A stretch of 64,000 bases of DNA from a virus: positions 35,594 to 99,593 of IMG/VR virus record IMGVR_UViG_3300027759_000063. One strand, 5' to 3'. A program made the translations under genes and the position numbers. Below, one piece after another: positions 61,144-63,242 of the stretch (position 1 is the stretch's first letter; each line of letters opens with the position of its first letter). The notes under the pieces were generated by a model. It had not been told where the DNA came from, did no database searches, and saw only the letters and a list, made by a program, of their open reading frames with translations.

Positions 61144-61929
61144 TTAAGAAGTAACGTTGTCTACAATGGCTAGATCTAACAAGTTTTGTTGACCAGCGGC
61201 CACAGTGCCAGTGTTGGCAGCGCCAGTGGTTCCTGACTTGATCACTGTGCCTTCGTCAGTGAAGAAGTTGGTGGCATATCGTTTGTCTGCAATCACCGAA
61301 GTGGCTGCGTAAGTTGATCCGCCAGTCCAATCCAACAAGAATTTGTTGGTCAGCTTGCTGACAGTGGTAGCAGTTGAATCGCCTGTGGTAAAAGTAATGG
61401 CCATGAGTCCTGCAGCAGGAGTCACATCATCATCCAGCACACACACGCCTACACTGAAGGCTGCGCCGTTGCCGGATCCTCCAACAGAAGTTGCTGTGAA
61501 AATTGTGCCTAACCCAAAGTTGGTAGGAGCACCGGCAGCAGTCCAGTTGGTGGTTGTGCCCACAGTGCTGATTTGATAGGCTTGACCCACCACAAACGAG
61601 CCGTCGTTGACGCCGGTGGCATCGCCCACTAGATATTTGTGACTGCCTTTTTGGCGGATGATATAGCCCGTGGCCACACCAATGCCTGTGCCTGACGGAT
61701 TGGCAATGTTCACAGTGACATCAACTCTGGGGTTGGTTGCACTAGGGGTATCAGTTGGTGCTGCACCGCCTACAACACCTAGATATTCAGTGGTGTTGAG
61801 TGTGTCAGCAGTATTGACCACCGGTGCGGTCAATGACCCAAAGTTGGGAAAGCCAAGATCCACACTGACGCTTGCGCCGCCATTGCCAGATCCTGTGCTT
61901 GATTTTTGTATTTTAAGAGGACGTCCCAT
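61144..61929 (-). CDS. Virion structural protein (261 aa)
   Basis: MGRPLKI start, GYIIRQKGSHKYLV, T/G/A-rich; strong TAAGGAG RBS; late promoter at 62018-62023. Confidence 0.7.
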   Translation of the reverse strand: MGRPLKIQKSSTGSGNGGASVSVDLGFPNFGSLTAPVVNTADTLNTTEYLGVVGGAAPTDTPSATNPRVDVTVNIANPSGTGIGVATGYIIRQKGSHKYLVGDATGVNDGSFVVGQAYQISTVGTTTNWTAAGAPTNFGLGTIFTATSVGGSGNGAAFSVGVCVLDDDVTPAAGLMAITFTTGDSTATTVSKLTNKFLLDWTGGSTYAATSVIADKRYATNFFTDEGTVIKSGTTGAANTGTVAAGQQNLLDLAIVDNVTS

Positions 61930-61937
61930 TTTTGTTT

Positions 61938-62017
61938 CTCCTTAAAGAAGTCCGATCGGAGTTCTAGTCCGTACGCGGCGGGTTAAACCGCATAAAACGC
62001 CGTATTGCGTTGACTTT
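61938..62017 (-). ncRNA. Candidate structured cis-regulatory leader (four-way junction)
   Basis: P1 AAGTC/GACTT enclosing AACGC/GCGTT, TATGCGG/CCGCGTA and CGGA/TCCG hairpins; ends beside the RBS. Confidence 0.5.
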
Positions 62018-62061
62018 TATTTATGGATCTGTTAAAATAATAAACCACACTGTATAACCTG

Positions 62062-62067
62062 TAAATA
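62062..62067 (+). promoter_or_regulatory. T4-like late promoter core, leaderless
   Basis: TAAATA-TTGCC-ATG(62073). Confidence 0.65.
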
Positions 62068-62072
62068 TTGCC

Positions 62073-63242
62073 ATGAGCACAACTGAACAAATTGTAGACC
62101 CTGCCAAACTTATTGAAGAAGGCAACCGACTGCGCGGTGAGAATCGCCCAGACCAAGCACTGAAATGTTACATGCTGGCCATGTGTCATGATCCTGACTC
62201 GTCGGCAGCATTCAACAACTATGGCAATGTATTACGTGAGTGTGGACATCCCAAACGAGGCATTCCGTTCTTGGAACATGCTACCATACTCGACCCCACC
62301 AGTGTCACAGCCCAATTTAACCTGGCAGTGAGTCATCTCATCATGGGCGATTATGCCCGTGGTTGGCCGGCATACGAAGCACGTTGGCAATACGAACATC
62401 TTGCCGGCACCGAGCCACAGCACAAACAACCGCGTTGGACTGGTGAAGATCTGAAAGACAAAACTATTCTTGTGGTAGGCGAGCAAGGACACGGGGACAA
62501 CATACAGTTTTGTAGATTCTTGTTTAACTTGCATGCTGCCGGTGCTAATGTGTTGTTTCAAGTCACAGATGGCATGATTCCATTGTTGACCAATACCAGC
62601 GTGATCAACTGGGTTGGTAGGTACACAGACCAACCTCCTGAATTTGACTACTGGATTCCTATCATGAGCATCCCCGGAGTGCTGGGTATTACGTTGGACA
62701 ATCTTCCCCGTCCCATCAATTACATTACTGCACAAGAAACACAAGTGAAAGAATGGTTAAGACTCATGGGTCCTAAAACACGCATGCGAGTGGGTTTTTC
62801 TTGGTCAGGACGCAGAGATGCCTGGCTGAACCAACACAAAGGTATGCCGTTTGAAAACATGTTGGAGTTGATCAAAAAAAATCCAGAGTATGAATGGATT
62901 AACTTGCAAGTAGATGCCACTGACGAAGAAACTCAAGCCCTGACTGCGGCTGGAGTAACAATGTATCCAGGAACTATTGCTAGTTTTGCCGACACTGCAG
63001 CCTTGATCATGTGCTTGGACGTTGTGATTTCAGTAGATACTGCCATTACACATCTAGCAGGAGCACTGGGCAGGCCCACCTGGCTGATGTTGCAGTGGTT
63101 TGCCACAGACTGGCGTTGGATGTTGGATCGCGACTCAAGTCCTTGGTACAGCACTGTTCGTATATTCCGCCAACCCGGCATGGGTGACTGGGCGTCAGTA
63201 ACTAAAAAGATAGCACAGTATCTCTCTTGGTTCAAAGTATAA
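62073..63242 (+). CDS. TPR-repeat glycosyltransferase (GT9-like C-terminal domain)
   Basis: TPRs (AFNNYGNVL, AQFNLA), EQGHGDNIQF, VG.SWSG, D.VISVDTAITHLAGALG.P, WRW...SPWY. Confidence 0.85.
   Translation: MSTTEQIVDPAKLIEEGNRLRGENRPDQALKCYMLAMCHDPDSSAAFNNYGNVLRECGHPKRGIPFLEHATILDPTSVTAQFNLAVSHLIMGDYARGWPAYEARWQYEHLAGTEPQHKQPRWTGEDLKDKTILVVGEQGHGDNIQFCRFLFNLHAAGANVLFQVTDGMIPLLTNTSVINWVGRYTDQPPEFDYWIPIMSIPGVLGITLDNLPRPINYITAQETQVKEWLRLMGPKTRMRVGFSWSGRRDAWLNQHKGMPFENMLELIKKNPEYEWINLQVDATDEETQALTAAGVTMYPGTIASFADTAALIMCLDVVISVDTAITHLAGALGRPTWLMLQWFATDWRWMLDRDSSPWYSTVRIFRQPGMGDWASVTKKIAQYLSWFKV

What the first reader, a model, noticed from the sequence alone, without database searches (positions are those of the whole stretch)
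61938..62023. Cloverleaf-like 5' leader with a competing anti-SD hairpin: candidate new cis-regulatory RNA
The ~85-nt leader between TAAATA and the ATG is GC-rich and almost fully pairable: P1 AAGUC/GACUU closes three hairpins (AACGC/GCGUU, UAUGCGG/CCGCGUA, CGGA/UCCG). The P1 3' strand can instead form CUUCU-UUA-AGGAG over the SD, and UCCGAUCGGA offers another alternative pairing. This is switch-like architecture, whereas other late leaders here are short or absent. It may be an autoregulatory binding site for the basic MGRPLKIQK N-terminus of the product. The exact TSS decides whether P1 can form.
Basis: partly seen in the sequence, partly recalled or inferred. Interest (0 to 1): 0.7.

Follow-up and report, generated by a model that had tools for sequence, protein, structure and literature searches.

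The report
Known freshwater-2 phage leader RNA
The folded leader is real, but it is a full-length copy of an RNA motif already in Rfam (freshwater-2, function unknown), and here it heads a late message next to the capsid gene of an uncultured giant T4-type phage.

Summary
The three hairpins at 61957-62011 (- strand) are real and covary. They are not new: the stretch 61927-62012 matches Rfam RF02980 (freshwater-2 RNA, Cis-reg) end to end at 68.8 bits against a cut-off of 49.9.

This scan has met the same motif on several other genomes, with the same verdict.

- **Closing stem P1 (AAGUC/GACUU):** its outer two pairs are broken in 34-36 of 48 close relatives. They lie upstream of any plausible start of transcription. 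Across the family, pairing of this kind is no commoner than in a null.
- **Anti-SD hairpin:** it is weak (-2.2 kcal/mol), never varies, and the family does not hide its SD more than shuffled linkers do.
- **UCCGAUCGGA alternative:** not kept in relatives.

What I can add:
- The motif starts at the predicted 5' end of a T4-type late transcript (CATAAATA).
- It occurs once per genome.
- In most relatives it follows gp23, a terminator and a late promoter.
- It always precedes a Pfam-less protein family that begins M-G-R-P.

One feature lies outside the span of the Rfam model, which ends at the AUG. The H2 loop (CCCG) is complementary to UGGG of the start codon and codon 2. Relatives with Gly-to-Ala at codon 2 often carry the matching loop change. 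This suggests a pseudoknot that covers the start codon. It is moderately supported and untested.

The parts
61927..62012 (-). Full-length match to Rfam RF02980 freshwater-2 RNA (model positions 1-84 of 84)
   Evidence: 68.8 bits against a gathering score of 49.9, E 6.7e-10. It is the only Rfam hit in the 64-kb window and in the 99.6-kb record.
62018..62025 (-). CATAAATA, a T4-type late-promoter-like box. The predicted 5' end of the RNA is at 62012-62014.
   Evidence: A TAAATA box is conserved upstream of the motif in nearly all relatives. Most of the 29 TAAATA boxes in the window lie just upstream of ORF starts, seven of them 4-5 nt before the ATG. A gp55 late-sigma homologue is present in a complete 364-kb relative. 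The TSS itself is inferred, not measured.
61996..62011 (-). H1 hairpin (AACGC, 6-nt loop, GCGUU)
   Evidence: MFE fold. G-C to A-U compensatory change in 15 of 48 relatives. Its length and sequence vary across the family, and 112 of 120 5' segments fold at -2 kcal/mol or better.
61972..61994 (-). H2 hairpin (UAUGCGG, loop UUUAACCCG, CCGCGUA), with a conserved U-G wobble at pair 3
   Evidence: 100% paired in 91 distinct protein-ascertained leaders. Pairs 5 and 6 show compensatory changes. The U-G wobble is kept in 90 of 91.
61957..61971 (-). H3 hairpin (CGGA, loop CUAGAAC, UCCG)
   Evidence: 99.1% paired, and all four pairs show compensatory changes. The loop YUAGAAC is nearly invariant.
61946..61953 (-). 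GGACUUCU box in the linker. It is specific to this lineage.
   Evidence: Invariant in the window's clade and absent from other clades of the family. Nine or more lineages carry the box with no 5' partner.
61938..61943 (-). Shine-Dalgarno AAGGAG
   Evidence: Part of the Rfam consensus. Invariant in relatives.
61979..61982 (-). CCCG in the H2 loop, candidate 5' strand of a pseudoknot
   Evidence: Complementary to UGGG at 61925-61928. 91 of 101 family members with a GGN second codon have a loop-start helix of 4 bp or more.
61925..61928 (-). UG of the start codon plus GG of codon 2, candidate 3' strand of the pseudoknot
   Evidence: Loop changes track the change of codon 2 from GGN to GCN.
61144..61929 (-). 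Downstream gene, 261 aa, MGRPLKIQK..., with no Pfam or PHROG family
   Evidence: 141 cluster representatives at E<=1e-3. Conserved features are the M-G-R-P N-terminus, a GYI(I/V)RQKG..K(F/Y) motif and a C-terminal strand.

Best explanation
**What it is (near certain).** The stretch is a copy of the catalogued freshwater-2 RNA motif (Rfam RF02980). It forms the 5' untranslated leader of a single-gene late message in an uncultured giant T4-type phage.

**Layout.** A T4-type late promoter box (CATAAATA) puts the 5' end of the RNA at or within two bases of the foot of hairpin H1. Three adjacent hairpins follow, then a 13-nt linker, a strong Shine-Dalgarno (AAGGAG) and the start codon of a Pfam-less protein that begins M-G-R-P.

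**How it most likely works (inferred, about even odds).**
- The hairpins are a recognition module, not a thermodynamic switch on the SD.
- The CCCG of the H2 loop pairs with UGGG, that is UG of the AUG plus GG of codon 2, to form a pseudoknot that covers the start codon.
- The pseudoknot thereby sets the rate of initiation.
- A protein probably stabilises it. The gene's own product while still unassembled is the obvious candidate.
- The 5'-terminal hairpin H1 may also protect the message from 5'-end-dependent decay.

**Shown:** family membership, covariation of the three hairpins, the promoter box, the gene association and the loop-to-start complementarity with its covariation.

**Inferred:** the TSS, the formation of the pseudoknot, any binding protein and the direction of the effect.
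For: **Identity**
- Full model match at 68.8 bits against a cut-off of 49.9.

**Structure**
- 48 protein-ascertained close leaders: 99.6% paired, 6 compensatory pairs.
- 91 distinct leaders from three protein groups: H2 100% and H3 99.1% paired, covariation score 0.432 against 0.121 in shuffles.
- The conserved U-G wobble in H2 argues for RNA of this strand.

**Cis-acting leader**
- My own model R1 finds the motif in 92 of 95 loci fetched through the downstream protein alone.
- One copy per genome, in 5 of 5 large relatives.
- The motif stays with the MGRP gene even where a divergent TPR-glycosyltransferase gene separates that gene from gp23, as in this window.

**Late promoter and 5' end**
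- TAAATA is conserved upstream.
- In the window TAAATA sits 4-5 nt before seven ATGs, so transcription must start about 5-6 nt downstream of the box.
- A gp55 homologue is present in complete relative G001.

**Recognition module rather than plain stability**
- Most of the H2 stem and the H3 loop keep their sequence, while H1 and the H3 stem covary freely.

**Pseudoknot**
- 91 of 101 GGN members have a loop-start helix of 4 bp or more. Only 2 would if base 5 were C.
- 102 of 133 observed, against 81.5 +/- 3.1 (maximum 92) when loops are permuted among members.
- A loop that fits C5 occurs in 21 of 45 GCN members and in 0 of 196 GGN members.
- In one tight sub-lineage the loop triplet pairs with codon 2 in 94.4% of cells, with U-A to A-U in 6 rows and C-G to G-C in 7 rows.
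Against: - No experiment exists: no mapped 5' end, no probing, no reporter.
- The pseudoknot helix is only 3-4 bp.
- About half of the GCN members are not compensated, 24 of 45.
- The phylogenetically controlled test has only 4 well-supported independent contrasts. Two or three go the predicted way and none the other way. That is not significant.
- CCC in the loop and GGG at the start could each be conserved for separate reasons.
- In the window's own clade the pseudoknot bases do not vary, so support comes from other clades.
- The pattern-based samples fix parts of H2 and H3 by construction.
- The fold of the product gave no clear RNA-binding relative. The best matches are SH3/Tudor/KOW-like barrels at Z of 3.9 or less.
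Confidence: 0.75

Rival explanations
1. Structure-only leader. The three hairpins merely cap the 5' end of an abundant late message. They protect it from 5'-end-dependent RNases and keep the SD region free, with no pseudoknot and no binding protein.
For: - H1 begins 0-4 nt from the predicted 5' end in most members.
- Native linkers leave the SD slightly more open than composition-matched shuffled linkers, 0.43 against 0.50 paired.
- The linkers are AU- or U-rich.
- Most other late genes of this phage have almost no leader, so this gene may simply need a stable message with a strong SD.
Against: - A generic stabiliser does not need an almost invariant H2 stem with a fixed U-G wobble, nor an invariant H3 loop YUAGAAC, across clades in which the neighbouring stems covary freely.
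- It does not explain the loop-to-codon-2 covariation.
- H1 is missing or replaced in some members while H2 and H3 stay.
Confidence: 0.3
2. A new cloverleaf riboregulator in which P1 (AAGUC/GACUU) closes three hairpins and competes with an anti-SD hairpin (CUUCU/AGGAG) to switch translation.
For: - In the window the MFE of a transcript that includes the upstream bases does form P1.
- With a start at G62014 a 3-bp GUC/GAC remains.
- GUC and GAC are each at least 90% conserved in the close clade.
- Two sister lineages could form a 6-7 bp P1 with one double change.
- CUUCU/AGGAG can pair in all 48 close relatives.
Against: - It matches a described Rfam family.
- The outer P1 pairs are broken in 34-36 of 48 relatives and show no compensatory change.
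- They lie at the 2nd and 3rd bases after TAAATA, upstream of the start inferred from the leaderless genes.
- The distribution of P1-type helix lengths equals a null built with unrelated 5' tails.
- At least nine lineages keep the 3' box without a 5' partner.
- The anti-SD hairpin is -2.2 kcal/mol, no better than shuffles.
- The family shows no excess of SD pairing.
- ARAGORN sees no tRNA-like gene.
Confidence: 0.05
3. A small-molecule riboswitch, or a separately acting small RNA made of H1-H3.
For: - The sequence is highly conserved in a stem and a loop.
- Rfam lists the function as unknown.
Against: - Three short independent hairpins give no conserved junction or internal loop to form a pocket.
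- The motif is always joined to the SD and AUG of one gene family.
- No terminator follows H3.
- There is one copy per genome.
Confidence: 0.04

Closest known systems
freshwater-2 RNA motif (Rfam RF02980, type Cis-reg). From memory it comes from the 224-motif comparative screen of Weinberg et al. 2017 (PMC5737381). The main text does not name it and the supplement is not held.
   Same: - Full-length match to the model: three hairpins, the conserved H2 stem, the CUAGAAC loop, AAGGAG and AUG.
- It sits upstream of a protein gene with no Pfam family.
- It is found only in uncultured environmental virus contigs.
   Different: Nothing that affects membership.
- The carriers are giant T4-type phages whose capsid protein is nearest to the PA5oct/GAP32/Phosso group.
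- A late promoter box lies directly upstream.
- The usual position is right after gp23.
- The GGACUUCU linker box is lineage-specific.
- There is a candidate pseudoknot reaching into codon 2, beyond the span of the Rfam model, which ends at the AUG.
E. coli rpsO (ribosomal protein S15) translational operator, cited from textbook knowledge. A hairpin loop pairs with the start-codon region to form a pseudoknot, which S15 stabilises so that the 30S subunit is trapped.
   Same: - Candidate hairpin-loop to start-codon pseudoknot, with the SD left in the connecting loop.
- It precedes a gene whose product has a basic N-terminus.
   Different: - No sequence or Rfam relation.
- Binding by the product is untested.
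- The candidate helix is 3-4 bp.
- An extra hairpin (H3) lies in the connecting loop.
- This is a comparison of how it might work, not of membership.
Leaders of T4 late genes and the translational operators of T4 genes 32 and 43, cited from textbook knowledge
   Same: - TATAAATA-type box directly upstream.
- gp55 homologue in a complete relative.
- A structured leader next to the initiation region of a phage gene.
   Different: - No sequence similarity to any T4 operator in Rfam.
- The known T4 late hairpins (e, soc, 49) work by hiding the start site in early read-through RNA. Here the structure lies inside the late transcript itself.

Membership tests
freshwater-2 RNA (Rfam RF02980) | Score at or above the curated gathering threshold over the whole covariance model | tested here: met
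   68.8 bits against 49.9, model positions 1-84 of 84, not truncated.
freshwater-2 RNA (Rfam RF02980) | Three consecutive hairpins supported by covariation | tested here: met
   (48 leaders, 99.6% paired, 6 compensatory pairs). (91 leaders, 11 pairs with changes on both sides).
freshwater-2 RNA (Rfam RF02980) | Conserved H2 stem UAUGCNG/CNGCGUA and H3 loop CUAGAAC | tested here: met
   Alignment to the consensus. Coordinates checked.
freshwater-2 RNA (Rfam RF02980) | Lies directly upstream of the SD and start codon of a protein gene (Cis-reg type) | tested here: met
   The model includes AAGGAG and AUG. The ORF starts at 61929.
freshwater-2 RNA (Rfam RF02980) | Freshwater or aquatic metagenomic origin, no cultured carrier (as I recall the family description) | tested here: inconclusive
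   - All carriers are IMG/VR contigs.
- None is among 50,697 GenBank phage records.
- Only two real hits among 185,579 species genomes, both in one MAG.
- The habitat of the samples is not shown by the tools.
tRNA or tRNA-like cloverleaf | Acceptor-type closing stem plus D, anticodon and T arms recognisable to a tRNA finder | tested here: not met
   - ARAGORN finds nothing in the window.
- The closing stem is not conserved.
- No tRNA clan hit in Rfam.
SD-sequestering switch (anti-SD hairpin competing with another helix) | Conserved, covarying anti-SD pairing, or SD occlusion above background | tested here: not met
   - No variation in the close clade.
- -2.2 kcal/mol, and 29 of 200 shuffles fold as well.
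- The family mean probability of SD pairing is 0.43, against 0.50 for shuffled linkers.
Pseudoknot translational operator (rpsO-like in how it works) | Hairpin loop pairs with the start-codon region, with covariation | tested here: inconclusive
   - The raw association is strong: 21 of 45 against 0 of 196, Fisher p 4e-18, but the rows are not independent.
- Sub-lineage count: 94.4% paired, 2 of 3 pairs compensatory.
- Only 4 well-supported independent contrasts.
Pseudoknot translational operator (rpsO-like in how it works) | A protein, classically the gene's own product, binds and stabilises the pseudoknot | not testable with these tools
   No RNA-protein tool is offered. The fold search of the product gave only weak SH3/Tudor/KOW-like matches.
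T4-type late transcription unit | TATAAATA-like box about 6 nt before the start, and a gp55 late sigma in the genome | tested here: inconclusive
   - CATAAATA at 62018-62025.
- TAAATA boxes cluster at gene starts.
- gp55 homologue in relatives G001 and G002 (E 2.6e-7 and 1.6e-7), but not in the 29%-complete record of the window.
- No 5'-end mapping.

The most novel reading that the evidence does not exclude
freshwater-2 is a translational operator. Its H2 loop clamps the start codon and codon 2 in a pseudoknot. The still-unassembled product of the gene, through its conserved basic M-G-R-P N-terminus or its SH3-like core, binds the H2/H3 module and holds the pseudoknot shut. Synthesis of this capsid-region protein is thereby matched to virion assembly. 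That would give an orphan Rfam motif both a mechanism and a partner.
Probability: 0.2. Interest if true: 0.55.

Novelty: already known. Interest (0 to 1): 0.25.

Why it matters
As a discovery it does not matter much. The RNA is already catalogued, and this scan has met it repeatedly.

Its modest value is as context for an orphan motif:
- It belongs to the late transcription programme of uncultured giant T4-type phages.
- It is tied to one hypervariable gene family, which in most relatives lies directly after the major capsid gene.
- It may control translation through a loop-to-start-codon pseudoknot, which could be tested with a handful of reporter constructs.

Tried and rejected
- **P1 cloverleaf stem.** Rejected.
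- **UCCGAUCGGA alternative pairing.** Rejected.
- **Anti-SD switch.** No support.
- **A fourth helix, GGAC.UCUU with GGGA.GUCC, enclosing SD and AUG.** It is predicted in the MFE of the window's clade. It is no better than shuffles (z +0.33), and members that use AGA for Arg pair in a different register. I do not claim it.
- **tRNA-like reading.** ARAGORN finds nothing.
- **Published description.** The main text of PMC5737381 does not name the motif and no supplement is held. A full-text search for 'freshwater-2' gave only unrelated papers.
- **Identity of the product.**
  - No Pfam or PHROG family.
  - No PDB sequence match.
  - The protein atlas gave only unnamed viral clusters at 0.82.
  - An AlphaFold model (pLDDT 78) had no Foldseek match at E<=0.001. 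VIA-align gave only SH3/Tudor/KOW-like barrels at Z of 3.9 or less, which is within noise.
- **Cultured carriers.** Three family proteins and the leader DNA found nothing in GenBank phages. The nearest cultured phages by capsid protein, Phosso and PA5oct, lack both the motif and the gene after their capsid gene.
- **PA5oct paper.** It gave no late-promoter data usable here.
- **My recollection that relatives of the protein occur in cultured cyanophages.** It could not be confirmed, and I do not assert it.

Full report
**What is there.** The finding lies on the minus strand, in the 143-nt gap between two divergent genes. These are a 261-aa ORF (61144-61929, -) that begins MGRPLKIQK, and a TPR-glycosyltransferase gene (62073-63242, +). 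Read 5' to 3' on the minus strand, the leader holds:
- CATAAATA (62025-62018)
- six bases, AAAGUC
- hairpin H1, AACGC/GCGUU
- hairpin H2, UAUGCGG/CCGCGUA, with a 9-nt loop UUUAACCCG
- hairpin H3, CGGA/UCCG, with the loop CUAGAAC
- a 13-nt linker containing GGACUUCU
- AAGGAG
- an 8-nt A-rich spacer
- AUG

**It is a known family.** A scan of the region against Rfam 15 gives a full-length, untruncated match of 61927-62012 (-) to RF02980, freshwater-2 RNA (type Cis-reg). The score is 68.8 bits against a gathering score of 49.9, with E 6.7e-10. The model's three hairpins coincide with H1, H2 and H3, and its unpaired 3' part coincides with the SD and AUG. It is the only Rfam family to reach threshold in the window and in the whole 99.6-kb virus record. 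It does.

I could not read the original description. The main text of the 224-motif paper (PMC5737381) does not name the motif, and its supplement is not held. What I say about the family beyond Rfam's own fields is therefore from memory.

**The three hairpins are real.** I fetched 80 loci from IMG/VR through the downstream protein alone, at 72-98% identity. Their 48 distinct leaders pair in 99.6% of cells. Six pairs have compensatory changes, all four pairs of H3 among them. No shuffle out of 500 reaches these values, and slid controls collapse to 21-60%.

I then fetched two more protein groups that share little beyond the N-terminus and built a covariance model. The motif is present in 92 of 95 such loci. 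In the 91 distinct rows:
- H2 is 100% paired and H3 is 99.1% paired.
- Eleven pairs show changes on both sides.
- The covariation score is 0.432, against 0.121 for shuffles.
- H1 varies in length and is poorly aligned by the model. Taken alone, 112 of 120 5' segments fold into a hairpin.
- The U-G wobble at the third pair of H2 is kept in 90 of 91 rows. This fits an RNA of this strand, not a DNA feature.

Folding energy alone is unremarkable, with z of -1.2 to -2.15. The leader is not GC-rich: 46.5% against 46.6% for the window.

*P1 (AAGUC 62016-62012 with GACUU 61952-61948).*
- The two outer pairs are unpaired in 34 and 36 of 48 close relatives, because the 5' strand reads CUUGUC in most. 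There is no compensatory change.
- The inner GUC/GAC is conserved but never varies.
- Across the family I compared the 5' tail with the linker box in 25 distinct combinations. The longest helices are 2-3 bp in 21 of them, the same distribution as with tails borrowed from members that lack the box.
- Two sister lineages could form 6-7 bp. At least nine lineages keep the AUYGGRCUUCU box with no 5' partner at all.

*The UCCGAUCGGA alternative* is kept no better than slid controls.

*The anti-SD hairpin (CUUCU/AGGAG).*
- It can form in all 48 close relatives but never varies, so it says nothing either way.
- It is worth -2.2 kcal/mol, which 29 of 200 shuffles reach.
- Over 104 distinct family members the SD is paired with mean probability 0.43. 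Leaders whose linker was shuffled give 0.50 (nominal p 0.012, rows not independent). If anything the linkers keep the SD open.

**Where the RNA starts.** TAAATA is conserved upstream of the motif in nearly every relative, usually as (C/G)ATAAATA or CTAAATA.
- Most of the 29 TAAATA boxes in the window lie just upstream of ORF starts on the same strand. Seven lie only 4-5 nt before the ATG. Transcripts from those boxes must begin about the 5th or 6th base after the box.
- This matches the textbook T4 late promoter, TATAAATA centred near -10.
- A complete 364-kb relative carries the same motif and a product about 89% identical. It encodes a homologue of the T4 late sigma factor gp55 (E 2.6e-7).
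- Applied here, the 5' end falls at 62012-62014, at the foot of H1 and at position 1 of the Rfam model.
- The outer bases of P1 would then not be transcribed.
- This is inference.

**Genomic setting.**
- The window is part of a virus record that CheckV rates 29% complete. Its gp23-type capsid protein is closest (68-76%) to giant phages such as Sinorhizobium phage Phosso, Pseudomonas phage PA5oct and Cronobacter phage GAP32.
- Those cultured phages have neither the motif nor the gene after their capsid gene.
- In 65 of 115 motif-bearing loci the capsid gene lies just upstream on the same strand. Many of them show a terminator hairpin, then the TAAATA box, then the motif.
- In the window's clade a divergent TPR-glycosyltransferase gene is inserted between the capsid gene and the motif. 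The motif has stayed with the MGRP gene.
- There is one copy per genome in five large relatives.
- Pattern scans found the motif only in uncultured virus contigs. Among 185,579 species genomes the only real hits are two contigs of one MAG labelled Haliscomenobacter.

**The downstream protein.**
- It has no Pfam or PHROG family and no solved relative by sequence. It has 141 cluster representatives among 1.84 billion.
- Proteins behind the motif range from 117 to 512 aa. They share three things: the start M-G-R-P-(L/I/V)-(K/N), a GYI(I/V)RQKG..K(F/Y) motif at varying distance from the N-terminus, and a C-terminal strand.
- Synonymous variation in codons 2-4 shows that the N-terminus is conserved as protein.
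- An AlphaFold model (pLDDT 78, N-terminal 25 residues disordered) finds only weak SH3/Tudor/KOW-like barrels, at Z of 3.9 or less. I cannot name its function. Its position suggests a capsid-associated protein.

**A pairing outside the span of the Rfam model.** The 3' part of the H2 loop is CCCG here (61982-61979), and CCCA, CCCC or UCC in relatives. It is complementary to UGGG (61928-61925), that is UG of the start codon plus GG of codon 2. The Rfam model ends at the AUG.
- Of 101 distinct members with a GGN second codon, 91 can form a contiguous loop-start helix of 4 bp or more that includes base +5. Only 2 could if that base were C.
- Over all 133 members, 102 have such a helix. When loops are permuted among members the figure is 81.5 +/- 3.1, with a maximum of 92.
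- Some lineages have Ala (GCN) at codon 2. In about half of their members the loop carries the matching G: UCC to UGC with GCA, UCC to AGC with GCU, and CCCC to AGCC or GCCR with GCA.
- A loop that fits C at +5 occurs in 21 of 45 GCN rows and in 0 of 196 GGN rows.
- In one tight sub-lineage, about 90% identical elsewhere, the loop triplet pairs with codon 2 in 94.4% of cells. U-A changes to A-U in 6 rows and C-G to G-C in 7 rows, with 3 unpaired rows at each pair.

The caveats are real:
- The rows are related.
- A tree built from the short leader gives only four well-supported independent contrasts. Two or three go the predicted way and none the other.
- About half of the Ala variants are uncompensated.
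- The helix is short.
- In the window's own clade the bases do not vary.

I put the pseudoknot at about even odds. I noted this pairing, before I looked up the scan's earlier reports. Several earlier reports on other genomes describe the same pairing. That is agreement between similar analyses, not independent evidence.

**Mechanism.** The safest statement is that this is the cis-acting leader of a late, single-gene message.
- Two features point to recognition by a partner or a tertiary fold rather than mere stability. These are the nearly fixed sequence of the H2 stem, wobble included, and of the H3 loop, set beside freely covarying neighbours.
- A pseudoknot over the start codon would lower or gate initiation. 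The closest working analogy is the rpsO operator, where a protein stabilises such a pseudoknot and traps the ribosome.
- The gene's own product is a candidate because leader and N-terminus are inherited together. But the N-terminus may be conserved for assembly instead.
- The rival is a structure-only cap that stabilises an abundant SD-led message. This phage's other late messages have almost no leader. The rival remains plausible, at about 0.3.

**Verdict.** The RNA is already catalogued, and this scan has reported it on other genomes before. Interest is low.

Noticed in passing
window 4389(+), 12529(-), 23987(-), 30318(-), 36410(+), 40299(+), 62062(+): Seven TAAATA boxes lie only 4-5 nt upstream of the ATG of sizeable ORFs (114-446 aa). 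Their late transcripts would be leaderless or nearly so. Other late genes here use a normal SD 17-25 nt after the box.
   Followed up: partly
window 62018-62067: Two late-promoter-like boxes stand back to back in one 143-nt gap. CATAAATA (-) serves the MGRP gene and GTAAATA (+) lies 5 nt before the ATG of the TPR-glycosyltransferase gene.
   Followed up: no
window 62073-63242 (+): The TPR plus GT9-like gene is an insertion specific to this clade. In most relatives the MGRP gene follows gp23 directly, after a terminator and a TAAATA box.
   Followed up: partly
L212 and L214 (genome contigs NZ_JBBAKG010000001.1 and ...003.1): The only real copies of the motif among 185,579 species genomes are on two long contigs (183 and 148 kb) of one MAG labelled Haliscomenobacter sp. 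EUL_031. Both have MGRP/MGRA genes behind the motif. They are probably giant-phage contigs binned with a bacterium, and at best a weak hint at the host.
   Followed up: no
window 61144-61929 (-), residues about 103-160 of the product: A segment of about 55 aa (G.Y.I...G.T.W...GA....G.IFTAT..G.G) recurs up to 11 times in very long proteins (up to 2856 aa) of the metagenomic library. It is an unnamed repeat domain, probably of surface or fibre proteins.
   Followed up: no
L216 3690-3800 (Sinorhizobium phage Phosso, after its capsid gene): The nearest cultured relative by capsid protein has a strong terminator hairpin and then GTAAATA before the next gene. The arrangement of terminator plus late box after the capsid gene is therefore shared, although the freshwater-2 motif is absent.
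   Followed up: partly
G001:C1:147317-147375 (L087): A weak second match to RF02980 (23 bits, below threshold) in the complete 364-kb relative. Nothing was listed for it at E<=1 in a later scan.
   Followed up: partly
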